Shown: positions 23,494 through 39,617 of the stretch, one piece after another
Layout: every line of letters begins with the position of its first letter
How positions within the stretch are numbered: the first letter of the stretch is position 1
Assembly (NCBI GenBank): GCA_016699465.1
Contig: CP064977.1
Location: 542,503 to 606,502 of the forward strand
Direction of reading: 5' to 3'
DNA from: Candidatus Campbellbacteria bacterium
Lineage (GTDB): Bacteria > Patescibacteriota > Minisyncoccia > Phycocordibacterales > EsbW-18
Length of the DNA stretch: 64,000 nucleotides
The notes under the pieces: generated by a model
The model's database searches: none
The model's input: only the letters and a program-made list of their open reading frames with translations
Told to the model about the DNA's origin: nothing
Made by a program: the position numbers and the translations under genes

Positions 23494-23593
23494 GCGAATG
23501 ACCAATCTCAAATATCAAAATTCAAAACTGGTCGGTCTTTAAGGTCGCAATGTGCGACCTTAAAGATTTGCGTGGCGTGTGCTGTAAGAGTTT

Positions 23594-25644: not shown

Positions 25645-25647
25645 GTC

Positions 25648-26043: not shown

Positions 26044-26181
26044 TAGGTAGTGGGGTGTTCTTTGTGCAAAACCGTGAGTGCTTTCAGTACTCACGGTTTT
26101 TGTGTATGTGACTAAAAAGTATTGACTTGTTGTGTTTTGACATGTATGTTTCTGTTGGACTTAGTAAGAAAGGAGAACGGT

Positions 26182-26544: not shown

Positions 26545-26620
26545 AACACAAAACCCGCCCGGCGTATGCCGAGCGGGTGTTTTGCTACATTCTACATTCT
26601 ATCTTCAACATTCCATTCAC

Positions 26621-26983
26621 TTACACATTTTCTCGCGCTGAAGGATTTGCTTCAAGGCGTTCAACAGAGATTGGTTCACCTGTCTTTTCATCAATGCCAT
26701 ACGTGCCATTTTCTATTCGTGCGAGGGCGTCAGTAACTTCTTTGAGCTGTGTCTCGAGTGTTCCTGAAATTGCAGTGTTTTCTTCTAGGTCTTCAAATTT
26801 ATCTGCGAGTTCGTTTTTGTCTGCGGTTGAAACGTCGATTGCTTCATCAACAATAGGACTCCAGTCGCCTGTCATGTTTGGATTTTTAATACCAATATTT
26901 GAAAGTTCGCTTTCAAGGCGTGCCTTTTCATCGGTTAATACTTGTTTGAAATGAGCGAGTTGCTCGGTAGTTATAGTATTCAT
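26621..26983 (-). CDS. DksA/TraR-family-like protein (YteA-like, no Cys4 finger evident)
   Basis: MNTITTEQLAHFKQVLTDEKARLESEL ... TYGIDEKTGEPISVERLEANPSAR resembles DksA/TraR C-terminal region. Start placed at internal Met. Confidence 0.45.
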   Translation of the reverse strand: MNTITTEQLAHFKQVLTDEKARLESELSNIGIKNPNMTGDWSPIVDEAIDVSTADKNELADKFEDLEENTAISGTLETQLKEVTDALARIENGTYGIDEKTGEPISVERLEANPSARENV

Positions 26984-27047
26984 ACGGGGACATCTTACCA
27001 GATATACACTTAAAGTCCAAAGCACAAAGCTCAAAATCCAAATGAGA

Positions 27048-27081
27048 CATACCGGCTTATTCGTGCGAATAAGCCGGTATG
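27048..27081. repeat. 34-bp palindrome cataccggcttattcgtgcgaataagccggtatg between two minus-strand genes
   Basis: Perfect 15-bp arms. No U-tract, so not a canonical intrinsic terminator. Confidence 0.55.
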
Positions 27082-27118
27082 TGTGAACACCAAAGTAGTC
27101 GTGTGGCAACCTAAAATG

Positions 27119-28633
27119 TTACATCGTAAAGCGGGCGGTGGAAATATAGTCAATAACCGCCGCGAGTGTATCTTCGTCGGGGGCGATGATAAGCAGTTTT
27201 TGTGAAAGGAATGAGTAAAGAACGCGCACACTGCCGTCAGTTCCAAGGAGTGCGCGAGTGTCTTTGTTTTTGATGGTGAGATCTTTAAAGACAGGCGTGA
27301 TTGAAGTCATAACGGGCACAGCAACTGGTACTTGTATTAGTGTGGTTGTTGCGACTGTTGTTGTGGATACGCCTGTGGTTGTTGCAACAGTTGATGTGGA
27401 AACGGGCGGAAGTGTGGGCGCAGGTGGAGGAGGAAGAGGTGCTGGGGTGCGAACCATAAATGCAATATCTTCAGGAAGTGTGTTCTCCCATTCAAGAAGT
27501 CCAGCAAATGCTGATTCGTATGATGTTACTTCAAATGCGAGAAATGGTGAAGTTTTTCCTGCTTTTGACACAACACCAACGTATGAGAGTGTTCCAAGAG
27601 AGCGCGCAAGACGATCCGTGTTGCGTGCGGAGAGTGTTGTAAAAAAATCATCGGGCACCACATTTTTAACTACACGGGTTACATTTCCATCTGCGTCTGT
27701 TGTGTCCGCATATGTTACGAGACGCACAAGCGATATGCCGGTTTTTTGTGTGTATACAGAGGGCAACGCGCCGAGCGTTTGTGAAAGTTTTGTTCGTGAC
27801 ATGTCGGTCACGTCGAGCGTTGTTTCTTCCACACCTGGAATAAGCGCATCGGGTGCGGTCATGGTTATTTGGGTGGTTGGTGTTTGGGTTTGCATGAGAA
27901 ATGCAACGGTTACCACAACTGCACCAAGTACTGCGAGGCCAACTCCCCCGAGAATCCACGGCATACTGTGTGTGCGCTCTTCGTCAGGAAGTGTGTCGTA
28001 CAATTCTTTTTTTGTTGCCTGTTGTTGGGCGAGTGCAATTCCAGAAACAGAAAGATTTTGATTGTGAATAGTTTCTGCGGCGTCTGATTCAAGTGTGCGA
28101 ATAGATGCTCGCCGAGCTGCTTCTGAAACGCGTTCCATTGCAGATGTTGATTGAGAAAATGATGCTTCGGCAGGTGTGCTTTGCGCAGGTGGTGTTGATT
28201 CGGGTGTCAGGCGAGCACTCGTCGGAAGCTTAGCTTCTGAAGGTGACTGTTCTGCAGGGATGCCGAATGCAATTACTTTTTTTGGAGCGTCTTGAATTGC
28301 ATGTTCAAAAGGAGCTTCGACAATGTCTGGCAGTGTTGTTTCAGGAGCAGGTGCTGGAGCAGGTGCTGATTTTGGAACGCCCGATACTGCAAATTGTGTT
28401 GCAGACAGGGGTTCTGGTGTTTGTGTATAGGGTGTAGAAACGGCTTCTGGTCCAAGCACGTCAATGAGTGTTTGTTTTGGCATTGCCGATCGCATTGCTG
28501 GGGTGTCTGACGACGCTTGAGAAGAAGGAGTTGATTGTGCAAACACAACATCATCAGGAACGGGTGTCGATGTTCCTGTTGGAATTTCTGGCGGAAGACC
28601 AAATGATGGATTCGTTGGAAGTGGATCAACCAT
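27119..28633 (-). CDS. Pro/Thr/Ala-rich single-pass membrane hypothetical protein
   Basis: 504 aa, low-complexity N-terminal half, central TM (ILGGVGLAVLGAVVVTVAFL), PPPPAP-rich region. Confidence 0.5.
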   Translation of the reverse strand: MVDPLPTNPSFGLPPEIPTGTSTPVPDDVVFAQSTPSSQASSDTPAMRSAMPKQTLIDVLGPEAVSTPYTQTPEPLSATQFAVSGVPKSAPAPAPAPETTLPDIVEAPFEHAIQDAPKKVIAFGIPAEQSPSEAKLPTSARLTPESTPPAQSTPAEASFSQSTSAMERVSEAARRASIRTLESDAAETIHNQNLSVSGIALAQQQATKKELYDTLPDEERTHSMPWILGGVGLAVLGAVVVTVAFLMQTQTPTTQITMTAPDALIPGVEETTLDVTDMSRTKLSQTLGALPSVYTQKTGISLVRLVTYADTTDADGNVTRVVKNVVPDDFFTTLSARNTDRLARSLGTLSYVGVVSKAGKTSPFLAFEVTSYESAFAGLLEWENTLPEDIAFMVRTPAPLPPPPAPTLPPVSTSTVATTTGVSTTTVATTTLIQVPVAVPVMTSITPVFKDLTIKNKDTRALLGTDGSVRVLYSFLSQKLLIIAPDEDTLAAVIDYISTARFTM

Positions 28634-29004
28634 ATATGCATAGTATACCCCGTGAGATAAATATGTGTATGCCGTGTTGTGTGGATGATTTTCTCACCAA
28701 ATATCTCACGGGGTAAAAATGCAAAGTTCAAAATCCAAAGTCCAAAAAAGGATAAGGCGATACGTGTATGTGGTAGATGGTATGTAGTATGTGGAAAAAT
28801 TCAATATCAAATAACAAATGACGAAGGTGGAAGCGTGCAACATGTAACATGAAGTATGTAACAAAAAGGGTGCTTTTTTATTCGCCTATTCGCGCGAATT
28901 AGAGAGTATAAAACACAGAGAGGTTTAACCTCGCTTATCAGTAAATATAAAAAAAGAACCGCCCGATGAGCGCGGCGGCTCTTCGGGCGGTGGTGGTGGA
29001 AGGG

Positions 29005-29280
29005 TTAATCCTCAAACCACGGGCGTTTCACATATCTTTGTCCAATGACCTCTGACTCCTGACAATCGGCACAGAACTTGATTGTCTGTTTTCGGTACCG
29101 AAAGCAGTGCGTATCTGTTGAGTAGTACCTCGTCGTACTCGTCCAGACAGATATCCTCTTACTTCCGCACGTGCAACGTCTGTAACGGAGGTTCAAATAC
29201 AATCTCTTGAGATAGAAAAAGACAACGATTGCCCCGACGGTGACGAGCAGTACGAGTAGAATCTGTGACAGTGACGGCAT
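29005..29280 (-). CDS. small Cys-containing membrane protein (91 aa)
   Basis: N-terminal TM. Downstream minus-strand terminator accgcccgaagagccgccgcgctcatcgggcggt + T-run. Confidence 0.4.
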   Translation of the reverse strand: MPSLSQILLVLLVTVGAIVVFFYLKRLYLNLRYRRCTCGSKRISVWTSTTRYYSTDTHCFRYRKQTIKFCADCQESEVIGQRYVKRPWFED

Positions 29281-29505
29281 GCTTCACCTCGTTGTGTGAG
29301 TGCACGATATGCGCACGTTGGGTTCAATATTCTGAGAATACCTTATGTCTTATGTGTATACTTGTCAATTTGTCCGTAATGGTTCAACGGTTCAGAATAC
29401 AAAGCACAAAAATCGGCCGCGAAGCAGATTTTTGTGCGAGCAGTTTTCGTAAGGTCGAACTTACGGTGGTTAGTTTTTTTGAACTTTGAGCTTTGGATTT
29501 TGTGC

Positions 29506-31740
29506 TTACCTTCTAGATCCCCCTCGATATCCTCCAGAACCACCAGGACGGCGGAAATCTCCACCAGAACGGAAGTCTCCTGATGGTGCTGCACCTTCCT
29601 TCAAACCTTTGCGAACTGCAAAGTCAGGGTCTGCATCCTTAATGGAGAGTTTAATCTTCCCTTCCTCACCCAGTTCTTTGATTATGACGGGAACCATGTC
29701 TCCAACGTTTGCTACCCCATCCATTGATGCAAGACGAAATGGTGCGATCTCAGAAATGTGTACTAATCCCTCGGTGTCCTTCATTCCAGAAAGAGGAATT
29801 TCATCACCCATGCGGACAAAGAGACCAAAGTCGGCAATGCGTGTGACAACACCTTCAAATTTTTCACCAACATTGTATTCACGCGCAATTCCTTCAATGA
29901 TTTTCTTTGTTTTTTCTGCACCTTCAACATTTCCCGTGATGAATACGGTCCCGTCTTCTTCAATCGTAATTTCTGTTCCGGTGAGTTCACGAATTTGGTT
30001 GATGGTCTTTCCCCCACCACCAATCACGGCACCAATGAATTCTTTTTTAATTTTTGTGACGAGAATACGCGGTGCATTTGGATTCATTTCTGCTCGTGGT
30101 GCAGGAAGCGCCTCTGCGATTTTATCTAAAATGTGGAGGCGCGCCTTCTTCGCTTTTTCAAATGCTTCTGGAAAAACAGAAAGTGGAACTCCAGCAACCT
30201 TTACATCCATTTGCATTGCAGTCACACCATCACGTGTTCCGGCAACTTTGAAATCCATGTCGCCGTAGTGATCTTCTGGTCCTTGAATGTCGGTCAGCAC
30301 GCGGAAGCTGGTTAGCTGACTAGCTTCATTAGCTTCTAGAACAACTCCCATTGCAATACCAGCAACTGGCGCGAGGATTGGTACACCTGCATCAAGAAGT
30401 GCCAGCGTTCCTCCGCACACAGAACCCATTGATGATGAACCGTTTGATGACATCACTTCTGACACAATACGAATCGTATAAGGGAAGGTTTCTTTGGGAG
30501 GAATAACAGCAGAAAGGGCTTTTTCTGCAAGTGCCCCGTGTCCAATCATGCGGCGATTTGTTCCACCCATACGTCCTGTTTCTCCTGTTGAATATGGAGG
30601 AAAGTTGTAGTGCAGCATAAAACTTTTTGCTCCTTTGACCTCCATCCCTTCCATTTCTTGAACTGCTTCTGGACCACCGAGCGTGAGTGCTGCGAGTACG
30701 TGTGTTTCACCTCGGTAGAACACACCCGCTCCGTGAAGCATTGGTGCAACGCCTCCTGCTTGCGTGTAGATTTCTCGCACTTGATCAAAGTCTCGGTTGT
30801 CGGGACGTTTGCCGGCGAGGATTCCAACATCAAACACTGCTTCAACTTTTTCTTCAAAAAATAAATCAGCAAGTTCACGACTTTCATCTGGTGCACTTGT
30901 TTTGAGGAGTTCGTGCCATACGTGGTGGAGTTCGCCCACTTTCTCTCCTCCGGAAATGCCACAGAACACAGCGCTCTCAAGTTGCGGGGCAATCTCTTTT
31001 TCAAACAATGCGAGTGCTGCGTCGGAGAGCGTTGGAAATGTGAATACTTTTTTCTCTTTTCCTAATTCTTTGATGATGTTGTTTTGGAATGTTTCCAATT
31101 TTGTAATTTCCTCAACTGCTTTAGTGAGTCCTTCGATGATGATGTCCTCGGGAACTTGGTGTGCTCCTGTTTCAATCATGTTGACCTTCTGATCTCGTCC
31201 GCAGACAAGTAAATCAAGTACGTTTGTTTTGCGTTGCTCGTAGTTCGGGTTGAGTATCCACGCACCTTCAGGAGTTCTCCCCAGTCGTACTGCACCAACT
31301 GGACCTGCCCATGGAATATCTGACACACCGAGTGCAAGTGATGCGGCAATAGTTGCAATAACATCTGGGTCGTCCTCTCCAATAGAAAGAATAGTAGTGA
31401 CTACTTGTACTTCAATACGAAGGCGTTGATCAAAAAGTGGGCGTACGGTGCGGTCAACAATGCGACCAGAGAGGATTGCTTCGTCCGACGGCTTCCCTTC
31501 TCGGCGCATGTACTTACCTCCAAGAATTTGTCCTGCCGCATAAAACTTTTCTTCATAATCAACAGTGAGAGGAAAATAATCTATTCCTTCACGCTCTTTT
31601 GAACCCATGACCGCAGTGGCAAGAACGGCAGTGTTGCCATAGCGAACAATCACGGAACCATTCGCCTGCATGGCGAGGTCGTTAAACTCTGCGGAGAGGG
31701 TTTTTTCACCAAAAACCGTCTCGAATGTTTTACTTTTCAT
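29506..31740 (-). CDS. pnp: polyribonucleotide nucleotidyltransferase (PNPase)
   Basis: 744 aa. Two RNase PH-like domains, KH and S1 domains (…GKIKLSIKDADPDF…), C-terminal RGG-rich tail. Confidence 0.9.
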   Translation of the reverse strand: MKSKTFETVFGEKTLSAEFNDLAMQANGSVIVRYGNTAVLATAVMGSKEREGIDYFPLTVDYEEKFYAAGQILGGKYMRREGKPSDEAILSGRIVDRTVRPLFDQRLRIEVQVVTTILSIGEDDPDVIATIAASLALGVSDIPWAGPVGAVRLGRTPEGAWILNPNYEQRKTNVLDLLVCGRDQKVNMIETGAHQVPEDIIIEGLTKAVEEITKLETFQNNIIKELGKEKKVFTFPTLSDAALALFEKEIAPQLESAVFCGISGGEKVGELHHVWHELLKTSAPDESRELADLFFEEKVEAVFDVGILAGKRPDNRDFDQVREIYTQAGGVAPMLHGAGVFYRGETHVLAALTLGGPEAVQEMEGMEVKGAKSFMLHYNFPPYSTGETGRMGGTNRRMIGHGALAEKALSAVIPPKETFPYTIRIVSEVMSSNGSSSMGSVCGGTLALLDAGVPILAPVAGIAMGVVLEANEASQLTSFRVLTDIQGPEDHYGDMDFKVAGTRDGVTAMQMDVKVAGVPLSVFPEAFEKAKKARLHILDKIAEALPAPRAEMNPNAPRILVTKIKKEFIGAVIGGGGKTINQIRELTGTEITIEEDGTVFITGNVEGAEKTKKIIEGIAREYNVGEKFEGVVTRIADFGLFVRMGDEIPLSGMKDTEGLVHISEIAPFRLASMDGVANVGDMVPVIIKELGEEGKIKLSIKDADPDFAVRKGLKEGAAPSGDFRSGGDFRRPGGSGGYRGGSRR

Positions 31741-31935
31741 ACCTTGTTACGCGAATGTGCGCGAATGAGAATGCACGCAGATTAACGCAGATTATAGGAG
31801 CTCGTCTTCACATTGCAGATCTGACTTTTGACGTGTCCTCGGCCGAAGGCCTCGGGTGCCTGTTCAAATCCGTATATGCAAAGGCGAGCAATTACCCCTT
31901 TGTAATACTGAAAATATAGCACAAAACACGCTAGT

Positions 31936-31957
31936 GGCTAATTCGTACGAATTAGCC
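31936..31957. repeat. perfect 22-bp palindrome ggctaattcgtacgaattagcc (member of a recurrent hairpin family)
   Basis: Self-complementary. Near-identical copy ggctaattcatgcgaattagcc at 45155-45176. Confidence 0.6.
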
Positions 31958-32235
31958 TGTATACAAGAAGCCCCACAGAAGCGCGGGGCTTCTTGTGGGG
32001 GGGGGTGAAAGAGCTGCGGTTATTCAAGCCATCGGTCTGTGGTTCGATTGGAGCCGTCGGCGTCGCCTCGGGGTTGTTCGAAAGAGGATTCTCCATATCG
32101 ATATGAGTATAGCAAAGTGGGAGGCGTACGGGGGCGTTGCCTTGGTGGTTAGTGTCACTGATTGTCTTTTTGTGTTTTGTGTGGAGAATGGTTCTTGGAA
32201 TGAGGTTCTTCGGGTTCGTGAAAGGAGCTGAGAGT

Positions 32236-32418
32236 ATGGGAGAAGGAAAAACGCCAAGTGCGCGGGTTCAGGAGTATTTGAATAGCGATCAGCCCTCCCG
32301 GTACGTGGTGTTGTACGGAGTGAGGGGTCTCTTCGACCACCTCCCACCCTTTGCCAGCCTCAAGCGGGCATATGCGATGTCCAAGGCGCGTCGTCCGAGG
32401 GCATTGCACAAGAAGTGA
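32236..32418 (+). CDS. hypothetical small basic protein (60 aa) in GC island
   Basis: AGGAG RBS 8 nt upstream of ATG. Terminator hairpin ccccggaccaggttgtccgggg+T-run at about 32441-32468. Confidence 0.3.
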   Translation: MGEGKTPSARVQEYLNSDQPSRYVVLYGVRGLFDHLPPFASLKRAYAMSKARRPRALHKK

Positions 32419-32577
32419 GAGTGGGGGGGGCAGAGTTCCCCCATGCCCCGGACCAGGTTGTCCGGGGTTTTTAGTTCAAAACCAAGGCGTTGTCTTGGTT
32501 GTTGACTTGTCATTTGGCGCGAGCGTGTGTAGAGTGGTGCTTGGACTTGGTCTTCTTACTCGCTAGGGAGGTGTCGA

Positions 32578-32826
32578 GTGCTTGACGAGCGCGACGAGTA
32601 CACTTGGGCGGCAGGGGCGCGGAAGAGACACCGCGAGCGGGGGTGTTTTGGTCACAACCCCCCGCCGGGAACCCCGTCAATTCCGTCTGTGTTTGACGGT
32701 TACCCGACGCCGAGCAAGTGGCGCCGCATCGGGGGAAGTGGCAATGCCGTCAGCTCCGCGGTGGGTGGCGAAGAGCCTGCCCAGACCCCCGAGGAACCGG
32801 AAGATGTTGTTGGTGCCCCCGTGTGA
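32578..32826 (+). CDS. hypothetical small protein (GTG start) in GC island
   Basis: GGGAGG RBS 7 nt upstream of GTG. GC-rich hairpin downstream at about 32886-32925. Weak. Confidence 0.25.
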   Translation: MLDERDEYTWAAGARKRHRERGCFGHNPPPGTPSIPSVFDGYPTPSKWRRIGGSGNAVSSAVGGEEPAQTPEEPEDVVGAPV

Positions 32827-32932
32827 ACGGGGGTTTCGTTTTGTTTGTATGAGGTGTTGCTCTGGGTTTGAATAAAAAAGGAAGCCCCGCGCGATGCGCG
32901 AGGCTCGTGCGGGGGGGGCGAGGATGAAACGG

Positions 32933-33355
32933 TTACTGCCACCGGTCGTAGTAGTACCAATAGAACATCTCTGCGACCTTCTCCGGCTCATCTCGTCCGG
33001 CGATTTGGTCGAGACTTTCTGCTAGATCCTTCTGTGAGAGGTAATCACGGCTAGCGCCCGCGTACTTCACGAGGAACATGGGCGTACCATCATCTAGCGG
33101 TTCTACTGGGTTGATGATGGCAATCAGGGGAGGGCTCGAGATTATTCCCACCGCGGGAAACATGACGTGGTTGAGCTTTTGCTCCATCTCGGCCGTATGG
33201 ACCTTCGCAGCTCTTGTTGTGGCGGGGTCAGGTCCCGTGGCGAGTGTTTTCCAGTTGGGCACTACCCAGTAATACATCATAAACATGATGCAAACCAGGA
33301 AGAACCCCGCAGACACCTTCACGGCGAAGCGAAACCGTCTTGTGTTTGAGTCCAT
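32933..33355 (-). CDS. single-pass membrane hypothetical protein (141 aa) in GC island
   Basis: Start at MDSNTRRF with GGGAGA RBS. TM FFLVCIMFMMYYWVV. Preceded by conserved 80-bp promoter/operator element. Confidence 0.45.
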   Translation of the reverse strand: MDSNTRRFRFAVKVSAGFFLVCIMFMMYYWVVPNWKTLATGPDPATTRAAKVHTAEMEQKLNHVMFPAVGIISSPPLIAIINPVEPLDDGTPMFLVKYAGASRDYLSQKDLAESLDQIAGRDEPEKVAEMFYWYYYDRWQ

Positions 33356-33384
33356 TTTTCTCCCTTGGCCGAAGGCCTTGCGCA

Positions 33385-33464
33385 CTGCATTTTTGTACGA
33401 CAACGAACAACCCAAATCCGCGCAGATTCTGCGCTTAAAATACAAAGAAGTCAATCCGAGGCAA
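33385..33464. repeat. 80-bp conserved upstream element, copy 1 (putative promoter TTGACT...CAGAAT with palindromic operator GCGCAGA-T-TCTGCGC)
   Basis: Identical apart from a GC dinucleotide to copy at 34465-34546. Lies immediately 5' of the 32933-33355 gene on the minus strand. Confidence 0.7.
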
Positions 33465-33529
33465 CGCCTCCGATCAACAAAACAAAGCGCCGACCTCGGG
33501 GAGGTCGGCGTTGGAAGAGGTACATCTGA

Positions 33530-34471
33530 TCAGTCGGCCTTGTTGGTCCCGAGCTTGGCGAGCGCCCACTCGATCCGCCCGCGCCGCTCGAGCGCCCGGT
33601 ACACCTTGTGCTCGATGTGCCCCACGACGGGGCCGAGCACGAGGCCCACCAGCGCGTAGGCAACGAGGTTCTCGTTGAGCCAAGCTCCCACCGCCATGGC
33701 GATGGACAGCGAGAACAGGGTTGCCAACGCCGCCGCTCGCCGTCCTTCCTCGTTCGTGTACTTCACGAAGAGAAGGATGGTGCGGGTGAAGGCGGAGAAC
33801 AACTGTAGGAGGTCACGCAGGATCAGTGTGGGGTGTGCGAGGAGCTCCCGAAGATCTTCGGCGCAGGCCGAGAGGGTGTGGGTGAGACTCTTCGCCAAGG
33901 CCTTGATGAGCCAAAGTAGCGCCCTGCCACCCCAGTACGCAACGGCAATCGGATTGAGGTATTTCAGGAGGGCCTTTCTGTAGAGAGCAACTATGAACCT
34001 CCTAGTAGGAAGGTCGTCAAACGGCCACAACTCCATAGCCGAAAGAAGAAAACCAAATACTGGGGCCAGAAAGGCACCAAGCGCGATTGCTCCGGGCAAT
34101 GTGTTGGCCAAGTTGTCGAACAACCAGAGGGCGCTTGTCATGTACAGGTTGAAGAAGAAAGAGAGGAGGGTCATCCACACGGACAGAGTCAGATAGACTT
34201 TTATCCGTTGCATCTCCTCCGGCATACCGACCATCGTCTCCTTGACCGCGCGCACGAAAGCGACGCACGCGCTCTGCCAGTCGTAGGCGATCCATCCCAC
34301 GACGGCTCCGACGATGGCGGCCAGGGCGAGCGACGCCCACGGCCAGCCGAACTGGGCCACGAAGGCCAGTCCGAGCAGTACACCTGTGAGGCATCCCGTG
34401 AGAATCCCCCAAAACGGACTCTTTTGCACGACTTCCCTTCCTTTCTCGGCCCGTAGGCCATCGAACTGCAT
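33530..34471 (-). CDS. polytopic integral membrane hypothetical protein (313 aa) in GC island
   Basis: At least 7 predicted TM segments, high-GC codon usage. Preceded by conserved 82-bp promoter/operator element. Confidence 0.5.
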   Translation of the reverse strand: MQFDGLRAEKGREVVQKSPFWGILTGCLTGVLLGLAFVAQFGWPWASLALAAIVGAVVGWIAYDWQSACVAFVRAVKETMVGMPEEMQRIKVYLTLSVWMTLLSFFFNLYMTSALWLFDNLANTLPGAIALGAFLAPVFGFLLSAMELWPFDDLPTRRFIVALYRKALLKYLNPIAVAYWGGRALLWLIKALAKSLTHTLSACAEDLRELLAHPTLILRDLLQLFSAFTRTILLFVKYTNEEGRRAAALATLFSLSIAMAVGAWLNENLVAYALVGLVLGPVVGHIEHKVYRALERRGRIEWALAKLGTNKAD

Positions 34472-34546
34472 TTTTGTACGACAACGAACAACCCAAATCC
34501 GCGCAGATTCTGCGCTTAAAATACAAAGAAGTCAATCCGAGGCAAC
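34465..34546. repeat. 82-bp conserved upstream element, copy 2
   Basis: tgcatttttgtacgacaacgaacaacccaaatccgcgcgcagattctgcgcttaaaatacaaagaagtcaatccgaggcaac. A third, degenerate copy lies at about 34945-35030 upstream of the 34604-34927 gene. Confidence 0.7.
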
Positions 34547-34603
34547 ACCTTTGTTCAACAAAACAAAAGCCCCGCGCGAGTGCGGGGCTCGTGCGGGGGC
34601 GCT

Positions 34604-34927
34604 TCAGTCGTTGATTGTTGTGATGGTGAACGGGCTCACCAGAATCGCTTCTGATGCCCCATCGAGTTCGACCGCCACAATTCGTTCGCTTCCCCCATTC
34701 CCGAGATTCCCGTTGCTCCAGATACCAAGGACCTTTCCTTTGAGTCCTTTGGGCAGTTGAGCTTCAGCGGTGGTGATGAACCGATCACCCTCGCGAATGA
34801 CTCGCGTGCTACCTCGTGGAATGATTCCGGCGTAGAACTCGGCGCTATCGAGGATGAGATCTCCCCACATGCAGCGCTTCAGAGTCTCGCCTTCTCGTAG
34901 TTGAATTTGATTCCCGGATTCTGACAT
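34604..34927 (-). CDS. small hypothetical protein (107 aa), paralog of 35078-35395
   Basis: MSESGNQIQLREGETLKRCMWG...IREGDRFITTAEAQLPKGLKGKVLGIW aligns with MSDVQEIRK...GETTSRCLWG...IRIGDRVVSRGIWYIPKGSTGTVVEI. Own promoter-like element and terminator (gccccgccgacgttctgtcggcggggc at about 35042-35071). Confidence 0.45.
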   Translation of the reverse strand: MSESGNQIQLREGETLKRCMWGDLILDSAEFYAGIIPRGSTRVIREGDRFITTAEAQLPKGLKGKVLGIWSNGNLGNGGSERIVAVELDGASEAILVSPFTITTIND

Positions 34928-35077
34928 CGCCCCGCTCCTTGACCCGTAGGCCTCAGTGCTGCGTTTCTTGTACGACAACGAACACGTAAATCTGCGGTGA
35001 TTTTGCACTTCATGTGAGAAGAAGTCAATCCATCGACAAAAAAGAAGCCCCGCCGACGTTCTGTCGGCGGGGCGGGG

Positions 35078-35395
35078 TTAGACACTTTTCGGAAGGATGT
35101 CGTCCGGAATAACATACGCGCGTATGGTTGCCCCATCGAAGAGAACGTTGATGAGGTCTCCTGGAGAGAGTGTGTTCATCTCGATCTCTACCACTGTTCC
35201 GGTACTTCCCTTTGGGATGTACCAGATGCCTCTAGAGACAACGCGGTCTCCAATTCGAATGGTGTATCCTTTTGTGTTGAAGCCGACGCACTTTCCGTTC
35301 GAAACGATGAAAATCCCCCACAGACATCGTGAGGTGGTTTCTCCCGCCAGGAGAACCGGCTCAACTTCTTTGCGGATTTCTTGTACGTCGCTCAT
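35078..35395 (-). CDS. small hypothetical protein (105 aa), paralog of 34604-34927
   Basis: See paralog. Upstream TTGACA-17-TATTGT promoter-like sequence. Downstream terminator. Confidence 0.45.
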   Translation of the reverse strand: MSDVQEIRKEVEPVLLAGETTSRCLWGIFIVSNGKCVGFNTKGYTIRIGDRVVSRGIWYIPKGSTGTVVEIEMNTLSPGDLINVLFDGATIRAYVIPDDILPKSV

Positions 35396-35520
35396 GGGAC
35401 TCCTTTCGAGTCTCTGTGTTGAACAACAATTCTGGCGAAACAATAGTCCGATATGCGTGCTTTGTCAACGAAGATGAAGAAGCCCTGCCGACGTTCTGTC
35501 GGCGGGGCGTTCTTCTTTTG

Positions 35521-36075
35521 TTATTTCTGTTCTTGCGGAGGTCGTTTGCGATCGTTGCGTCCACCTCGGTACCCCATGAGGTACTTACGAGGGTCTTCGT
35601 CGAGGTTTGTGAAATGATCTGCAGCCTCGATGAGTTTTGCGGATGTTGAACGTCCGAATGCGATTGCTTCTACTTGGCACCCTTCACTAATTTGAAGATA
35701 CTGCACAAGTGGAACATAGTCTCCGTCCCCAGATACAATGACAACGGCATCCAATTTTGGTGCGAGTTTCACTGCGTCCATGGCGAGTCCAACGTCCCAG
35801 TCGGCCTTTTTTGCACCTCCTGCGAAAATTTGTAAATCTTTTGTCTTCACCTCAATACCCATCTTGGTAAGAGCTTCAAAAAATGTTTTTTCTTCACCTG
35901 ATTCAGTTGAAATAACGTATGCGATTGCACGAACGAGCGGTCGCTCCCCTATTGCATCTTTAACGATTGCTGCGAAATTAACGCGAGCGTTGTAGAGATG
36001 TCGTGCACTGTGATAGAGATTTTGCGCGTCGATAAAAACGGCAACGCGCTGTGCCTTCTGTTTGATTATGGTCAT
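35521..36075 (-). CDS. NYN-domain (LabA-like, PIN-related) putative RNase
   Basis: RVAVFIDAQNLYHSARHL...VVIVSGDGDYVPLV matches the NYN domain acidic core. 184 aa. Confidence 0.7.
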   Translation of the reverse strand: MTIIKQKAQRVAVFIDAQNLYHSARHLYNARVNFAAIVKDAIGERPLVRAIAYVISTESGEEKTFFEALTKMGIEVKTKDLQIFAGGAKKADWDVGLAMDAVKLAPKLDAVVIVSGDGDYVPLVQYLQISEGCQVEAIAFGRSTSAKLIEAADHFTNLDEDPRKYLMGYRGGRNDRKRPPQEQK

Positions 36076-36192
36076 AAAATGATTTTAATAAGCTCAAAAT
36101 TCAAATTTCAAAATCCAAAAAAGTAATGCTCAATGTGTTATATATGTAAATTTTTTGAGCTTTGGATTTTATACTTTGAGCTTACGGTACGA

Positions 36193-36453
36193 TTACTCTT
36201 TGATCTTCTTCATCAACTCAGTGTACTTTGCTGGGTTTTTCTTTTTGAGGTATGCCAAATGTGTTCGGCGTTGTGCCACCATTCCGAGAAGACCACGTCG
36301 TGAGTGTTTGTCCTTGCGGTTGTCTTTCAGGTGCTTCGAAAGTTCATCAATACGTTTTGAGAGCAAATTGATTTGTACTTCTGGAGAACCAGTGTCAGCA
36401 TCGTGCCGAGCGCTTTCTTTGATAACTTTGATTTTCTTTTTCTTGGATAACAT
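36193..36453 (-). CDS. rpsO: 30S ribosomal protein S15
   Basis: MLSKKKKIKVIKESARHDADTGSPEVQINLLSKRIDELSKHLKDNRKDKHSRRGLLGMVAQRRTHLAYLKKKNPAKYTELMKKIKE, unmistakable S15. Confidence 0.85.
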   Translation of the reverse strand: MLSKKKKIKVIKESARHDADTGSPEVQINLLSKRIDELSKHLKDNRKDKHSRRGLLGMVAQRRTHLAYLKKKNPAKYTELMKKIKE

Positions 36454-36856
36454 ATGAATAGAATATGGGTGGATAGTATGTGGTATGTAGAATGTGGAAT
36501 GAGGTATATGGAATGTGGGGCGGTGATACAAAAATGTTGGGGTTAGGGCCTCCAACGGAAAATACTATATCAAAACTTTGGACATATCGCAAGTTAGGGT
36601 GTGTGTCGCTGGTGTGTAGGGAAAATGTGTCTGGATACGTGTGGAAGGTATTGTTTATCTTGTTTTGGTGTTGTGTAGTTTTTGAAGGTACGTTCTTCGG
36701 ATCCACCGTATTTCTGGGCCGTGTCTAGTATACAGTGGACCCTTTCGCGGGGTCAGAAAAAACTCATCATTCACTGACCCCGCGTTTTTATATACCAAAA
36801 GAAAAAGCCGGCATGCTCTGTTGAAAAACAGTGTGCACACCGGCCGGAGGAGTGAT

Positions 36857-37099
36857 TTATTTGAACCCGTTGGCAATCCAGATAACTGCGAAAACGAGTC
36901 CTCTAGCGAGAGCAATTATAGACGCGAACCCGAAGGAGAGTGGCCAGATAAGAGCGGTAGACGGCTGAGGCCGGTACATCCAAGGGGTTCCGGATCCCGT
37001 TGTGCCCCCAGACTTTCGAAGTGCCCACACCCAACACCCACCGAGAAAGATGTACCCAAATGCTCCGACTATCCAACACAGCGCAATTATCCAGTTCAT
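36857..37099 (-). CDS. small Trp-rich membrane protein (80 aa)
   Basis: Two TM helices. AAGGGG RBS-like. Minus-strand terminator at about 36796-36848. Confidence 0.4.
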   Translation of the reverse strand: MNWIIALCWIVGAFGYIFLGGCWVWALRKSGGTTGSGTPWMYRPQPSTALIWPLSFGFASIIALARGLVFAVIWIANGFK

Positions 37100-37485
37100 C
37101 TCGCACCCCTTTTGTTAGTGAGGCGTAATTGTCTGTTGAACTATCTAGCGTTGTTTATATGCTTGTACAAAGGCATTGTCAATGTATTTCTTTTTTAACA
37201 GATGTGTCGCACAATATCACATAGAGATATATTGTGACGGCAAAAGTTTTTGAATAGAAAAAGACCCGCCACAGGAGGACGGGTCTGAAGAACTGGGGTT
37301 CGGGACGCTCACACTCGAGAGATTCTAGGCACCTTGCGTTTTGTGTCGACCGAGAACTCGGGCCGAACGCGACAGGTGGTGTACCCAGGTCTCGAGTTTA
37401 GGCAACTTCTCCCCAAACCCTTTTCCATATACACACTATCACAGTACAAAAATATGTCCACATCCATTAGTATTTTTCATATTAT

Positions 37486-38412
37486 ATGATCAAAGATGTT
37501 GAAACATTAAAAAGAGAATTTCTTGAATACCTCGAGATTGAGCGAGGTCGTTCTATTAAGACAATAGAAAACTACGACCGGTACCTCTCTCGATTTATTG
37601 CATTTTCGAAGGTGTCCAAGACGAGTGATATTACCGAGACATCTGTTCGTGAATTTCGTTTGTGGTTGAACCGCCAAACATCGCGTGTCCAGAAAAAAGA
37701 TGCAGGTAACACCTTGAAAAAGAATACACAGAACTACTACCTCATCGCCCTCCGTGCATTTTTAAAGTTTCTACGTAAACGAAACGTGGAAACACTTCAA
37801 CCAGAAGCAATTGAACTCGCAAAAGTCGGCGAACGTGATCTTGATTTAATTACACCAGTGGAGCTTGGTCGTATTATGGATGCCCCAAAAGGAAGCTCTG
37901 TGCAAGCACTGCGAGATAAGGCGTTGTTGGAGCTACTCTTTTCAACAGGTATGCGTGTATCGGAGCTCGTATCACTTCCGCGCGATGTTGATTTGTCGCG
38001 AGGCGAATTCTCTATTCGTGGAAAGGGTGAAAAGGTTCGTGTGGTCTTCGTTTCCCCTTCTGCACGAGATGCGGTTAATGCGTATTTAGAAAAAAGAACT
38101 GACATGGACGATGCACTCTTTATCCAGTTTGGAAAGGCGTCAAAAAATGCAAAAGACTTGAGGTTAACGGCTCGTTCTGTTGAGCGTTTGGTAAAACGAT
38201 ATGCAGTGAAATCAGGTATCAGTAAGAAAGTAACACCACACGTCATTCGCCACTCGTTTGCGACCGATTTACTTGAGAATGGTGCTGATTTACGAAGTGT
38301 GCAGGCACTCCTCGGTCATGCAAATATCACCACGACGCAAGTGTACACGCACGTGACCGACAAACATTTGAAAGAGGTGCACAACAAATTCCACGGCCAA
38401 CAAAAACAATAG
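37486..38412 (+). CDS. tyrosine recombinase XerC/XerD family
   Basis: 308 aa. N-terminal core-binding domain. C-terminal catalytic ...HVIRHSFATDLLENGADLRSVQALLGHANITTTQVYTHV (R..HxxR..Y). Confidence 0.85.
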   Translation: MIKDVETLKREFLEYLEIERGRSIKTIENYDRYLSRFIAFSKVSKTSDITETSVREFRLWLNRQTSRVQKKDAGNTLKKNTQNYYLIALRAFLKFLRKRNVETLQPEAIELAKVGERDLDLITPVELGRIMDAPKGSSVQALRDKALLELLFSTGMRVSELVSLPRDVDLSRGEFSIRGKGEKVRVVFVSPSARDAVNAYLEKRTDMDDALFIQFGKASKNAKDLRLTARSVERLVKRYAVKSGISKKVTPHVIRHSFATDLLENGADLRSVQALLGHANITTTQVYTHVTDKHLKEVHNKFHGQQKQ

Positions 38413-38436
38413 TACAATACACGTATCGTTATCGGC

Positions 38437-39617
38437 GCTTTTATTTTTTATGAAAAAATATTACATACTCGTACTTTTTGTCTGTGTTATAAGTCCACTC
38501 TTTGCTCGTGCGGAAGACGTTATTTTTCAAAAAGTACTTCGAACCTATGATCAAAATGGATATAACTCTTCCTGGGGCTCCCGTGCTTTTGAAGGTACAG
38601 CGTGGCTTTCAGGAGGAGATTTGATAGTCACAGGAAGTTGCAAACAGGACCACACAGGAGGCGCATTTCTCTTCGGAAGTGATGGTGTATATAAAGGAAT
38701 TGGAAACACATGTAGTGATACAAGCTCTATTAGGTTGGGCTGTTCGGAGGCGGGAGGATGTCAATTGGGGACCGCTATTGCTGAGCGCCCAGATGGTTCA
38801 ATTGTACGTTTAGGACAAAGCCGCAATTTTGTTCGACGCTCTCCTGCTGTCTACACTATTGCATCAGACGGGCTCTCGTTTGTATCTCGACTCTTTTTTT
38901 CAAAATCAAGCGATGAGTATATGTATCCCCAAGGTCCAGAAAATGACTGGAATACATGGGCAAGCTACTACGATCCTGTTGTTACCTCGGATGACATACT
39001 GGTGATGAGGAAAGGTGGAGATGGGTACTTTCCACAACTAGACCGTCTTGTTGCGTTTAGTCTGCCAGAGTTCGGTGCGCTGTGGACAAAAAATTTAACG
39101 GGAGAGATCGTTGGTGGTATTAAAGATATGTTCATTCAAACCAACGCACGAAATTATCCCAAAGAACTCGTTGTATATCGCGTGAGTCGTGGTGGGGTAA
39201 CTGAAATTGACCGAGAACCAATCAATGGATTATGGAAATCATCGTGGGGCACATCCGCTTTGAAAAAAGATCCTAGTGATGCATCGGTGTTTGCTATTAA
39301 AACAGGAACAGGTCCACGAGATACAAAAATAGTTCGCTACCGAGCGAGTGCTTCAGGTATACAAAAAATTGATGAGAGAACTATACCTAGTGATGTGTAT
39401 GGCGCTGACTTTTCAATCTTTGGTGACTACCTAGCATTTGCTACAGGTGGCCCTCGCGTGTGGAAGGGTACGAAGGAGCTAACGATTGGAAGCGCCCCTG
39501 CAGGCACACTGTGGAATGTTTCAAGTGTTTCGTTTGGTCGTGATGGAAAACTCGCCGTCGCAAATGCTAAAAATGTGTTGTTGTACGCGCTTAGTGGAAC
39601 GGTTACACCTCCGGTTT
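38437..39617. repeat. 1.18 kb direct repeat, copy A (covers 5' UTR and first about 390 codons of the secreted-protein gene)
   Basis: About 100% nucleotide identity to 39925-41107 except two single-base homopolymer length differences. Confidence 0.8.

What the first reader, a model, noticed from the sequence alone, without database searches (positions are those of the whole stretch)
31740..36195. GC-rich foreign-looking island splits the normally adjacent rpsO and pnp genes
The conserved rpsO-pnp pair, both on the minus strand and both confidently identified, is separated by about 4.4 kb. The GC content of that stretch jumps far above the flanking DNA, with G/C runs and dense six-frame ORFs. 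The island carries no integrase, and all of its genes are monocistronic units with their own sigma70-like promoters and hairpin terminators: a NYN-domain RNase-like gene, two small paralogs, two membrane proteins, and two tiny plus-strand ORFs. This combination suggests horizontal acquisition of an unusual cassette array of unknown function. An accessory system (defence, toxin or membrane-stress module) is possible, but I cannot name one.
Basis: partly seen in the sequence, partly recalled or inferred. Interest (0 to 1): 0.75.

Follow-up and report, generated by a model that had tools for sequence, protein, structure and literature searches.

The report
Strain-variable gene-cassette islet before pnp
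In this tiny-celled Campbellbacteria (CPR) genome, the gap in front of the pnp gene holds a GC-rich, fast-changing set of small self-expressed orphan genes that differs between sister strains; it is a real but fairly ordinary flexible hot spot, notable mainly because the genes share a repeated promoter/leader module.

Summary
rpsO (36193-36453) and pnp (29506-31740) lie 4.45 kb apart. The stretch 31927-35520 has 56% GC against 43.7% elsewhere (z about +6), and two independent short-read contigs match the window exactly across both junctions. Two points need correcting. The NYN gene is native: rpsO-NYN-pnp is the conserved order in 42 Patescibacteria loci. The foreign-looking part is therefore about 3.6 kb, between the NYN terminator and the pnp promoter.

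It is not a single acquired block. Two sister strains carry different cassette sets at the same site. More distant relatives hold unrelated cargo there, including toxin-antitoxin pairs, an IS200-like transposase and a secretion ATPase.

Each cassette is terminator, sigma70-like promoter, leader and one small ORF. Three cassettes here, and four in the sister strains, share a roughly 115-nt promoter/leader module. Gains, losses and breaks in homology fall at these repeated modules or terminators.

The products are near-orphans: two SH3-like beta-barrel proteins, a multi-pass and a single-anchor membrane protein, and a 60-aa basic protein. A further 82-aa ORF is unsupported. All matched cassette genes are under purifying selection but evolve quickly and are mosaic. 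No phage, plasmid, integron or defence signature was found.

Best reading: a moron-like, recombination-shuffled accessory islet, probably acting at the cell envelope. The function is inferred only.

The parts
29506..31740 (-). pnp (PNPase, 744 aa), the core flank
   Evidence: Pfam RNase_PH x2, KH and S1. It is 98% identical at the protein level to strain L084.
31741..31926 (-). pnp promoter and 5' leader (extended -10, TGTGCTATATT). Homology with the sister strains resumes here, so this marks the right edge of the island.
   Evidence: blastn: L084 11747-14283 matches window 31926-29389 at 94.5%, and L087 resumes at 31928. Promoter match.
31965..32005 (-). Last terminator hairpin of the island, preceded by a C9 run (G9 on the + strand)
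   Evidence: The same terminator follows TM130 in L087 (88%).
32006..32910 (+). About 0.9-kb strain-specific segment bounded by G8/G9 runs. It carries p60 and p82 in the orientation opposite to the other cassettes and lies between the TM140 stop and the terminator that follows the homologous gene in L087.
   Evidence: Sequence comparison. blastn finds no DNA match to L084 or L087. G/C runs.
32236..32418 (+). p60, a 60-aa basic protein with its own terminator at 32445-32468
   Evidence: Homolog p67 in L087 (38% identity, 8.6e-8 in a small database; dN/dS 0.38) with a similar upstream region. GC3 periodicity.
32578..32826 (+). p82, an unverified ORF. A promoter-like site lies at 32507-32535 and a terminator at 32815-32834.
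   Evidence: Only consensus promoter and terminator matches. It has no homolog and no codon periodicity.
32933..33355 (-). TM140: N-terminal membrane anchor plus a roughly 100-aa domain. Terminator at 32882-32906.
   Evidence: The only homolog among 5.8 billion proteins is P0006 (62%), which lies directly upstream of pnp in L087. dN/dS 0.15. TM segment.
33357..33469 (-). Promoter/leader module, copy 1: TTGACT-N17-CAGAAT, then a leader with GTTCGTTGTCGTACAAAAA and a GC hairpin before the SD
   Evidence: nhmmer E = 3.5e-29.
33530..34429 (-). TM299: membrane protein with about five predicted membrane-spanning segments (start taken at the GTG that aligns with the ATG of the L083 allele). Terminator at 33488-33510.
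   Evidence: GC3 is 0.78. The allele is mosaic against L083: the ends have dS 0.08-0.15 and the middle is saturated.
34438..34550 (-). Promoter/leader module, copy 2. It lies within a 106-nt repeat (34462-34567) that is 95% identical to 33381-33486, and the two repeats bracket the TM299 cassette.
34604..34927 (-). SH3b: 107-aa SH3-like protein, paralog of SH3a. Terminator at 34567-34590.
   Evidence: Homolog in L087 (59% aa, dN/dS 0.19).
34930..35040 (-). Promoter/leader module, copy 3 (more diverged). Homology with strain L084 ends inside it, at 34956.
35078..35395 (-). SH3a: 105-aa SH3-like beta-barrel protein. It has its own, different promoter at 35440-35468 and a terminator at 35047-35073.
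35482..35508 (-). NYN terminator hairpin. A near-copy occurs at 35047-35073, so the two direct repeats bracket the SH3a cassette, which is absent in L087.
   Evidence: Repeat D3.
35521..36075 (-). NYN-domain gene: native, not part of the island
   Evidence: Pfam NYN 6.1e-36. It lies between rpsO and pnp in 42 loci. GC3 is 0.41.
36193..36453 (-). rpsO (S15), a core flank
   Evidence: Pfam S15 7.6e-30. Logan gene call of 86 aa.
37486..38412 (+). XerC/D-type tyrosine recombinase, a conserved neighbour of rpsO and not an island integrase
   Evidence: NCBIfam best hits are XerD and XerC; integron-integrase models score far below their cut-offs. It is present next to rpsO in relatives regardless of cargo.

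Best explanation
The 3.6 kb between the NYN terminator and the pnp promoter is a flexible genomic islet. It sits in a site that tolerates insertions throughout this branch of Patescibacteria. In this Campbellbacteria species group the site is filled with an array of self-contained, moron-like expression cassettes.

Each cassette is a GC-rich hairpin terminator, a sigma70-type promoter, a leader of about 60 nt and one small ORF. Most cassettes share a conserved promoter/leader module of about 115 nt and a few recurring terminator types.

Shown:
- Cassette content differs between sister strains.
- Gains, losses and homology breakpoints fall at the repeated modules and terminators.
- Alleles are mosaic and far more diverged than the flanks, yet remain under purifying selection.

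Inferred:
- The repeated modules serve as portable homology for cassette gain, loss and swapping by ordinary homologous recombination. No dedicated recombinase is needed.
- The modules also place the cassettes under one common transcriptional or post-transcriptional control. The invariant leader core GTTCGTTGTYGTAYAAAAA acts as a sequence-specific binding site rather than as a folded RNA.
- The products work at or near the cell envelope in a strain-specific interaction such as phage exclusion or contact with the host cell. These products are small membrane proteins, SH3-like beta-barrel adaptors and a small basic protein.
- The raised GC3 reflects either origin from a higher-GC gene pool or GC-biased conversion in a recombination hot spot.
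For: Composition.

Cassette anatomy.

Module: seven copies in three strains with nhmmer E of 1e-25 to 1e-30, and none in about 1.4 Mb of other loci or elsewhere in the 64-kb window.

Hot spot:
- The rpsO-NYN-pnp order holds in 42 loci.
- The 28 NYN-to-pnp gaps measured range from 67 nt to 2.4 kb.
- The cargo is unrelated between loci: T2SSE, ParE, HEPN plus NTase, IS200.

Strain variability:
- This window carries SH3a, SH3b, TM299, TM140, p60 and p82.
- L084 carries SH3a', TM102, b77 and TM149.
- L087 carries SH3b', p69, p67 and TM130.

Breakpoints:
- Homology between the window and L084 ends at 34956, inside module 3, and resumes at 31926.
- The SH3a cassette is bracketed by 44-nt terminator repeats and is absent in L087.
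- The TM299 cassette is bracketed by 106-nt repeats.
- The L083 contig is a TM299 allele bounded by the module on both sides.

Selection and divergence:
- dN/dS is 0.15-0.5 for the cassette genes.
- dN is about 18-20 times that of pnp for SH3b and TM140 against L087.
- TM299 is mosaic.

Orphan status. The SH3 family has 6 representatives among 1.84 billion proteins.

A distant SH3 relative (P0010) is again a lone, promoter-bearing insert of higher GC, inside a dcw cluster.

Junctions: confirmed independently.

The published definition of a moron requires its own promoter and terminator and deviant GC. The founding example, HK97 gene 15, is described in PMC3594210.
Against: - No function is demonstrated. 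The membrane or phage-exclusion role rests only on protein type, rapid turnover and analogy.
- Promoters and terminators are consensus matches, not mapped transcripts.
- Only three strains and two fragments were available, so the recombination mechanism is inferred from breakpoints, not observed.
- SH3a uses a different promoter, and p60 and p82 lack the module, so the module is not universal.
- Leaders fold no better than shuffled sequence, so any RNA-level role is weakly supported.
- No donor for the GC-rich ORFs could be identified.
- Only 64 kb of the 811-kb contig could be checked for other module copies.
Confidence: 0.6

Rival explanations
1. One recent horizontal import of a foreign GC-rich island, inserted as a block between rpsO/NYN and pnp.
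For: - The GC z-score is +6.
- GC3 reaches 0.78-0.90 in TM299.
- No homologs are found among Patescibacteria relatives.
- The region is strain-specific relative to L084.
Against: - The SH3a cassette is shared with L084 at flank-like divergence (dS 0.30 against 0.25 for pnp).
- SH3b, TM140 and p60 have diverged homologs at the same site in L087.
- The promoter/leader module is shared with lower-GC cassettes of the sister strains.
- The block is internally mosaic, including a 0.9-kb sub-insertion.
- GC3 differs between cassettes (0.56-0.78).
- No donor, integrase or att-type repeats were found.
Confidence: 0.12
2. A decayed prophage, satellite or other mobile element whose morons remain after the structural genes were lost.
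For: - The cassettes fit the moron definition apart from the phage context.
- Small SH3-like proteins of unknown function are common in phages, although the BFVD fold matches are only E of about 0.02.
- SH3a has a weak phrog_7955 hit at 1.1e-4.
Against: - The module is absent from IMG/VR, IMG/VR holds no close relative of TM299 or TM140 (the SH3 alignment could not be run), and INPHARED gives no match by DNA or by protein (TM299 and SH3a tested).
- No plasmid hits.
- No integrase, capsid, terminase or att repeats.
- All three strains have only small cassettes here.
Confidence: 0.12
3. An uncharacterised anti-phage defence or toxin-antitoxin-like module. For example, the membrane proteins would be effectors and the SH3-like proteins sensors or antidotes.
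For: - Turnover between strains is rapid.
- In relatives the same hot spot holds ParE and HEPN/NTase toxin-antitoxin pairs.
- The proteins are small and membrane-associated.
Against: - No PADLOC hit for any cassette protein.
- The genes are separate transcription units rather than operons.
- Partners do not co-occur consistently across the three strains: SH3a occurs without TM299 in L084, and SH3b' without TM299 in L087.
Confidence: 0.12
4. The GC anomaly arose in place, through GC-biased gene conversion at a recombination hot spot, rather than by foreign origin. This concerns the composition only and is compatible with the main explanation.
For: - The excess is confined to GC3, while GC1 and GC2 are host-like.
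- GC-corrected tetranucleotide usage is host-like (z = -1.8).
- Cassettes in all three strains have raised GC3.
- Within TM299, the recently exchanged ends have GC3 of 0.79-0.90 against 0.68 in the old, divergent middle.
Against: - Substitutions were not polarised, because no outgroup was available.
- The GC1/GC2/GC3 values of TM299 also fit an ordinary gene from a genome of about 60% GC. This rests on general knowledge of how codon-position GC tracks genome GC.
- The TM299 middle still has GC3 far above the host.
Confidence: 0.3
5. Chimeric assembly that joined GC-rich DNA from another organism into the Campbellbacteria contig.
For: - The window comes from a metagenome-assembled genome.
- The Logan contigs break inside the island, at 32058 and 34517.
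Against: - Both junctions lie inside 100%-identical short-read contigs, which run 131 nt (right junction) and about 1 kb (left junction) into the island.
- The break at 34517 lies inside the 106-nt repeat.
- Sister strains from other samples carry homologous cassettes and the same module between NYN and pnp.
Confidence: 0.03
6. The ORF-poor stretch 32440-32930 encodes a structured non-coding RNA rather than the p82 protein.
For: - The stretch is 59-68% GC and shows no codon periodicity.
- p82 has no homolog.
Against: - No Rfam match, even at E <= 1.
- No related sequence is available for a covariation test.
- The stretch is flanked by ordinary promoter- and terminator-like sites.
Confidence: 0.1

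Closest known systems
Phage morons (for example HK97 gene 15), as defined in PMC3594210
   Same: - A single small ORF with its own promoter and factor-independent terminator.
- GC content differs from the neighbouring genes.
- Inserted between conserved genes.
- Variably present between close relatives.
- Often encodes a small membrane protein.
   Different: - These cassettes sit in a chromosomal housekeeping cluster (rpsO-NYN-pnp), not in a prophage.
- No phage gene or phage homolog was found.
- Several cassettes are arrayed in tandem and share one promoter/leader module.
Chromosomal HGT hot spots, or flexible genomic islets between core genes (a general concept, cited from my own knowledge of comparative genomics)
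   Same: - The same pair of core flanks (NYN and pnp).
- Different accessory content in different strains and species.
- Cargo includes toxin-antitoxin pairs and an IS element in relatives.
- No integrase is needed.
   Different: In this species group the content is not a random set of accessory genes. It is an array of cassettes with a uniform, repeated promoter/leader/terminator architecture.
Borrelia 'upstream homology box' (UHB) gene family, the ospE/ospF-related erp genes (Marconi et al. 1996, cited in PMC10016077)
   Same: - A conserved upstream promoter and leader block sits in front of otherwise divergent ORFs.
- By my recollection of that literature (only reference titles were read here), the conserved block is linked to recombination and to the generation of variants.
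   Different: - The Borrelia genes are lipoproteins on cp32 prophage plasmids, dispersed across replicons.
- Here the genes are tandem and chromosomal, have no lipobox, and belong to unrelated protein families.
Integron cassette arrays
   Same: - A tandem array of single-gene cassettes in one orientation.
- Cassette content varies between strains.
- A divergently oriented tyrosine recombinase lies nearby.
   Different: - The cassettes carry their own promoters.
- Their 3' hairpins are terminators with T-runs, not attC sites.
- The recombinase is a housekeeping XerC/D-type enzyme, separated from the array by rpsO and NYN and present in relatives without cassettes.

Membership tests
Phage moron | An independent transcription unit: its own promoter and terminator around a single ORF | tested here: met
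   Consensus sigma70-like promoters and hairpin/T-run terminators flank SH3a, SH3b, TM299 and TM140. Found against expected: 10 against 3.1 promoters and 15 against 6.5 terminators. These are sequence matches only; no transcripts were mapped.
Phage moron | Base composition differs from the surrounding genes | tested here: met
   GC is 0.56 against 0.437 (z about +6). GC3 is 0.56-0.78 against 0.33-0.47 in the flanking genes measured.
Phage moron | Lies within a phage or prophage genome, between phage genes | tested here: not met
   The flanks are rpsO/NYN and pnp. The searches of PHROGs, IMG/VR and INPHARED that were run gave no significant hit: all cassette proteins against PHROGs, the module plus TM299 and TM140 against IMG/VR, and the island DNA plus TM299 and SH3a against INPHARED.
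Integron | An IntI-type integrase next to the array | tested here: not met
   The neighbouring recombinase scores best as XerD/XerC (246 and 242 bits). The integron-integrase models score 130 and 81 bits against cut-offs of 265 and 435. It is conserved next to rpsO in relatives whatever cargo they carry.
Integron | attC recombination sites (RYYYAAC...GTTRRRY cores) at cassette 3' ends | tested here: not met
   A core-pair scan finds only one palindromic chance match, which spans the SH3a start codon. None lies at a cassette end.
Integron | Promoterless cassettes expressed from a common Pc promoter | tested here: not met
   Each cassette has its own TTGACx-N17 promoter match, and a terminator lies between cassettes.
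Flexible genomic islet / HGT hot spot | The same core flanking genes with different accessory content in related genomes | tested here: met
   The NYN-to-pnp gap is 67 nt to 2.4 kb in the 28 relatives measured and holds unrelated cargo. Three sister strains have three different cassette sets.
Classical integrase-borne genomic island | An integrase, a tRNA or other att target, and flanking direct repeats | tested here: not met
   No integrase ORF lies in 31927-35520. The only tRNAs are at 47-51 kb. There are no terminal att-like repeats, only internal module and terminator repeats.
Upstream-homology-box type gene family | A conserved promoter/leader block preceding divergent ORFs | tested here: met
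   Seven module copies precede SH3-like, single-anchor and multi-pass membrane ORFs.
Upstream-homology-box type gene family | Lipoprotein products carried on cp32-like prophage plasmids | tested here: not met
   The locus is chromosomal. No lipobox is evident in the N-termini (sequences). No phage context was found.
Known anti-phage defence systems / toxin-antitoxin | A match to a described defence or toxin-antitoxin protein family | tested here: not met
   PADLOC gives a hit only for the native NYN gene and none for the cassette proteins. Pfam and NCBIfam give none.
SH3-like beta-barrel fold (SH3a/SH3b) | A small five- or six-stranded barrel that superposes on SH3, KOW, Tudor and PWWP domains | tested here: met
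Riboswitch / structured cis-regulatory leader | A stable conserved fold with covariation, or an Rfam match | tested here: not met
   No Rfam match. Leaders fold no better than shuffles (z from -0.6 to +0.4). RNAalifold finds only two short helices of 4 bp each; across the seven single-sequence folds only the 4-5-bp GC hairpin before the SD recurs.

The most novel reading that the evidence does not exclude
The conserved terminator-promoter-leader linkers may be the working parts of a previously undescribed cassette-exchange system in CPR bacteria. It would be an 'expression-ready' counterpart of an integron. Small envelope and adaptor genes would be captured, shuffled and co-regulated through portable homology modules. 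This could happen via excised circular intermediates, and a dedicated regulator could bind the invariant GTTCGTTGTYGTAYAAAAA core. Such a system would let a reduced episymbiont diversify its surface or its phage-exclusion repertoire quickly.
Probability: 0.12. Interest if true: 0.8.

Novelty: new variant of a known kind. Interest (0 to 1): 0.45.

Why it matters
CPR/Patescibacteria have tiny genomes and depend on host cells. Little is known about how they vary between strains or defend themselves against phages.

This locus shows three things:
- A conserved landing pad, the gap between the NYN gene and pnp, exists across the group.
- One species group fills it with rapidly exchanged, individually expressed orphan genes for membrane proteins and small beta-barrel proteins.
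- A shared promoter/leader module links these genes, giving a concrete handle for finding a co-regulated accessory gene set in an uncultivated lineage by a module search.

If the cassettes prove to be envelope or phage-exclusion factors, the module would mark strain-specific interaction genes. If not, this is an ordinary flexible islet with an unusually tidy architecture.

The work also corrects a default assumption: in Patescibacteria the rule is rpsO-NYN-pnp, not rpsO-pnp.

Tried and rejected
- Rfam at gathering threshold (whole window) and at E <= 1 (island): only four distant tRNAs and two sub-threshold chance hits.
- Leader pattern scan of IMG/VR: 0 hits. The same scan of JGI metagenomes gave 2 hits, both chance matches inside unrelated coding DNA.
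- blastn of the island against phages and plasmids: no match.
- tblastn of TM299 and SH3a against phages: no match.
- IMG/VR protein scans for TM299 and TM140: none.
- PADLOC, PHROGs, Pfam and NCBIfam on all cassette proteins, including those of the sister strains: nothing above the cut-offs.
- First AF2 run with 3 sequences: pLDDT 47.7, unusable.
- PDB profile search: nothing significant.
- Exact look-ups of TM299 (313-aa form), TM140 and p60 in the contig index: not on record, so the internal 32059-34516 stretch has no independent contig.
- Integron idea: rejected.
- Riboswitch idea: rejected.
- Homology of p82 to L087 p69, and of TM299 to TM149: not significant.
- Literature search for rpsO/pnp/NYN in Patescibacteria: no paper.

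Full report
**1. The observation**

The window belongs to a Patescibacteria genome. The island proteins are identical to NCBI entries IPJ70_03200, IPJ70_03205 and IPJ70_03215 of a 'Candidatus Campbellbacteria bacterium' MAG on an 811,376-bp contig.

rpsO (36193-36453) and pnp (29506-31740) are both on the minus strand and are firmly identified by Pfam. They lie 4452 nt apart.

Composition:
- GC rises from about 0.44 to 0.55-0.62 between roughly 32.0 and 35.4 kb.
- Background 3-kb windows average 0.437 (sd 0.021, maximum 0.469). Against these, 31927-34955 is 0.571 (z = +6.4) and 31927-35520 is 0.561 (z = +5.9).
- The excess sits in third codon positions. Cassette ORFs have GC3 of 0.56-0.78, and up to 0.90 in the last third of TM299. 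pnp, NYN, rpsO, xer and a neighbouring ORF have 0.33-0.47, while GC1 and GC2 are host-like.
- GC-corrected tetranucleotide usage is not an outlier (z = -1.8).
- The only G/C homopolymers of 8 or more in the 64 kb are three runs inside the island.

Consensus scans find sigma70-like promoters (10 against 3.1 expected) and hairpin/T-run terminators (15 against 6.5 expected) around every island gene.

The observation therefore holds, apart from the points in section 2.

**2. What is native and what is not**

I scanned one genome per species for PNPase relatives and ran tblastn on the 80 returned loci.
- The order rpsO-NYN-pnp occurs in 42 Patescibacteria loci, often with a divergent XerC/D-type recombinase gene upstream of rpsO.
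- The Acidobacteriota, Chloroflexota and similar loci have rpsO directly before pnp.
- The NYN gene here (35521-36075) also has host-like GC3 (0.41).

NYN is therefore a conserved native neighbour, not island cargo, and 'normally adjacent rpsO-pnp' is not the rule in this phylum.

The recombinase is XerC/D-like by NCBIfam and fails the integron-integrase models.

**3. A lineage-wide landing pad**

In the 28 relatives measured, the gap from NYN to pnp ranges from 67 nt to 2.4 kb. The longer gaps hold unrelated genes:
- a T2SSE ATPase (L007);
- a ParE toxin with a small partner (L015);
- a HEPN plus nucleotidyltransferase pair and an IS200-like transposase (L039);
- a NAGPA-like protein (L016);
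- several unknowns.

None of them encodes a relative of the cassette proteins of this window.

**4. Sister strains**

Homolog searches found almost nothing, but the few hits led to the same site in close relatives.
- L084 (Logan, SRR11673994): flanks about 94% identical, PNPase 98% identical at the protein level. Between NYN and pnp it carries SH3a' (88%), TM102, a 77-aa beta-rich protein and TM149.
- L087 (JGI 3300046786): flanks 88-90% identical. It carries SH3b' (59%), p69, p67 (homolog of p60) and TM130 (62% over the domain of TM140).
- L083 (Logan, SRR12762275): a 1039-bp contig holding a mosaic allele of TM299, bounded on both sides by the same module.

This window carries SH3a, SH3b, TM299 and TM140, plus p60 and p82 on the other strand.

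DNA homology between the window and L084 runs from the left flank through rpsO, NYN and the SH3a cassette. It stops at 34956, inside a promoter/leader module, and resumes at 31926, where the pnp promoter begins. The part specific to this strain is therefore 31927-34955, which is also the most GC-rich part.

The islets of L084 and L087 are also GC-enriched (0.51 and 0.515, against 0.455 for their pnp genes), and their ORFs have GC3 of 0.51-0.68.

**5. Cassette anatomy and the shared module**

Each unit is a GC-rich hairpin terminator, sometimes a short inverted repeat, then TTGACT-N17-CAnAAT, a leader of about 60 nt and one ORF.

The leader contains GATTT, the near-invariant core GTTCGTTGTYGTAYAAAAACGCAG, a 4-5-bp GC hairpin with variable loops, and an AAGGAG-type SD.

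An nhmmer profile finds seven full copies, with E of 1e-25 to 1e-30:
- three in this window (33357-33469, 34438-34550, 34930-35040);
- two in L084;
- two in L087.

It also finds the two half-copies at the ends of L083. It finds nothing else in the 64-kb window or in about 1.4 Mb of other Patescibacteria loci.

The module is absent from IMG/VR, and a scan of JGI metagenome contigs gave only two chance hits.

SH3a has a different promoter (TTGACA-N17-TATTGT).

The terminators also recur:
- The hairpin GCCCCGCCGACAGAACGTCGGCGGGGC follows NYN and SH3a here. It follows several genes in L084 and L087.
- A C-run plus GCACGAGCC hairpin follows SH3b and TM140 (D13).

**6. Where rearrangements fall**

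- The SH3a cassette is bracketed by 44-nt terminator repeats (35031-35074 and 35466-35509) and is missing in L087.
- The TM299 cassette is bracketed by 106-nt repeats that are 95% identical (33381-33486 and 34462-34567). Deleting it would give the SH3b...TM140 order seen in L087.
- The breakpoint between the window and L084 lies in the leader core.
- Window 32006-32910 looks like a 0.9-kb insertion, bounded by G8/G9 runs, between the TM140 stop and the terminator that directly follows TM130 in L087. It carries p60 in the opposite orientation to its homolog p67.

This pattern suggests that the repeated modules act as portable homology for cassette gain, loss and exchange by homologous recombination. 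That is an inference from breakpoints in three strains, not an observed event.

**7. Are the ORFs real, and how do they evolve?**

Nei-Gojobori estimates:
- dN/dS is 0.18 for SH3a, 0.19 for SH3b, 0.15 for TM140, 0.51 for TM299 and 0.38 for p60. These are protein-coding genes under purifying selection.
- Against L087, pnp has dN 0.018 and dS 0.60. SH3b and TM140 have dN of 0.32-0.36 and saturated dS. The cassette alleles are therefore much older or faster-evolving than the flanks.
- SH3a against L084 has flank-like dS (0.30 against 0.25), consistent with vertical descent.
- TM299 against L083 is mosaic. The ends have dS of 0.08-0.15, and the middle 107 codons have 36% aa identity and saturated dS.
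- p82 has no homolog and no codon periodicity and remains unverified.

**8. What the proteins are**

All are near-orphans. Among 5.8 billion clustered proteins, each of the three queried (TM299, SH3a and TM140) has exactly one non-self hit.

A profile of SH3a, SH3b and P0004 finds only 6 representatives among 1.84 billion.

One distant member (P0010) again sits alone, with its own TTGACA promoter and raised GC, between murL and murD in a CPR genome of about 31% GC.

TM299 has about five predicted TM-like segments, and TM140, TM130 and TM102 have one N-terminal anchor.

PADLOC, PHROGs, Pfam and NCBIfam give nothing above the cut-offs for any cassette protein of the three strains.

**9. Assembly**

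Two Logan short-read contigs of SRR11674038 are 100% identical to window 34517-38468 and 19506-32058. Both junctions (35520 and 31926) are therefore independently assembled.

One contig ends inside the 106-nt repeat, as expected for a de Bruijn assembler. The interior (32059-34516) has no independent contig. It is supported indirectly by L083 and by the sister strains.

**10. Mechanism and rivals**

Best supported: a moron-like, recombination-shuffled accessory islet in a permissive hot spot.
- The shared module provides common expression signals and homology for exchange.
- The leader is not a folded riboswitch-like RNA. It folds no better than shuffled sequence (z from -0.6 to +0.4), and the 4-5-bp GC hairpin before the SD is the only element that recurs across the seven single-sequence folds. 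Its invariant core is more likely a sequence-specific binding site.

The biological role is inferred from protein types, strain-level turnover, mosaic alleles and analogy with membrane-protein morons (PMC3594210). It is an envelope-associated, strain-specific function such as phage exclusion or host-contact variation. I give the structural and evolutionary account about 0.75 and the functional guess about 0.25.

Rivals considered:
- a single foreign import;
- a prophage remnant;
- a new defence or toxin-antitoxin module;
- in-place GC-biased conversion as the cause of the GC3 excess;
- a non-coding RNA in 32440-32930;
- an assembly chimera.

They are weighed in their own sections. The chimera is refuted for the junctions.

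**11. Comparison and novelty**

The islet behaves like phage morons and like flexible islets at HGT hot spots. Its shared upstream block recalls the Borrelia upstream-homology-box family (Marconi et al. 1996, listed in PMC10016077).

It is not an integron: there is no IntI, no attC cores at cassette ends, and the cassettes carry their own promoters. It is not a moron in the strict sense either, because there is no phage context.

I rate it a new variant of a known kind.

**Note on provenance**

From memory, unverified here, the IPJ70 locus tags and the SRR1167xxxx runs belong to the Danish activated-sludge long-read MAG project (PMC8012365, listed).

Noticed in passing
window 35521-36075, and loci L003-L080: A NYN-domain (LabA-like) gene lies between rpsO and pnp in 42 Patescibacteria loci. 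It is absent from the Acidobacteriota and Chloroflexota loci, where rpsO abuts pnp. This suggests a phylum-typical RNA-metabolism trio, rpsO-NYN-pnp. A full-text search found no paper on it.
   Followed up: partly
L007 8311-9519; L015 2406-2923; L039 8453-9760; L016 5055-6449: In relatives the NYN-to-pnp gap holds a T2SSE ATPase, a ParE toxin pair, a HEPN/nucleotidyltransferase pair with an IS200-like transposase, and a NAGPA-like protein. The gap is a general landing pad for accessory and selfish genes.
   Followed up: yes
window 31997-32005, 32423-32430, 32911-32918: These are the only G/C homopolymers of 8 or more in the 64 kb. Each sits just upstream of a terminator hairpin, on the coding strand of the gene it follows. 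The corresponding tracts are only 4-5 nt in L084 and L087. They could be slippage-prone, or they could be homopolymer-length errors of a long-read assembly.
   Followed up: partly
window 36857-37099 (-): An 80-aa predicted membrane ORF lies between the xer gene and rpsO. Its GC3 is 0.56, like the cassettes, and it is also present in L084. The xer-to-rpsO gap is 1036 nt here against about 110-290 nt in more distant relatives. It may be a second small insertion.
   Followed up: partly
window 31741-31926 (-): The pnp leader of about 185 nt is conserved with L084; the 2.5-kb blastn segment that covers the leader and pnp is 94.5% identical. It has an extended -10 (TGTGCTATATT) and contains AGGCCTTCGGCCGAGG, which is nearly identical to the hairpin in the TM140 cassette leader (repeat D17). 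The cassettes and pnp may share post-transcriptional control, or the match may be chance.
   Followed up: no
window 36454-36540 (-): The region upstream of rpsO is C/A-rich with repeated CCACAT(T)C-like motifs and has no purine-rich Shine-Dalgarno before the ATG (sequence).
   Followed up: no
window 29506-29580 (-), the PNPase C-terminus: PNPase ends in an RGG-rich tail (GDFRSGGDFRRPGGSGGYRGGSRR). The tail is also present in L084 and is extended in L087.
   Followed up: no
L091 6001-6267: A distant member of the SH3-like family (P0010) is a lone gene with its own TTGACA-N17-TATTAT promoter. It is inserted between murL and murD in the dcw cluster of a CPR genome of about 31% GC, and its local GC is 0.41.
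   Followed up: partly
window 35521-35564, against L084 and L087: The last roughly 10 codons of NYN differ between strains (GGRNDRKRPPQEQK here, GRVERKNIK in L084 and L087), and homology with L087 ends at 35564. Recombination at the islet edge therefore reaches into the 3' end of the native gene.
   Followed up: no
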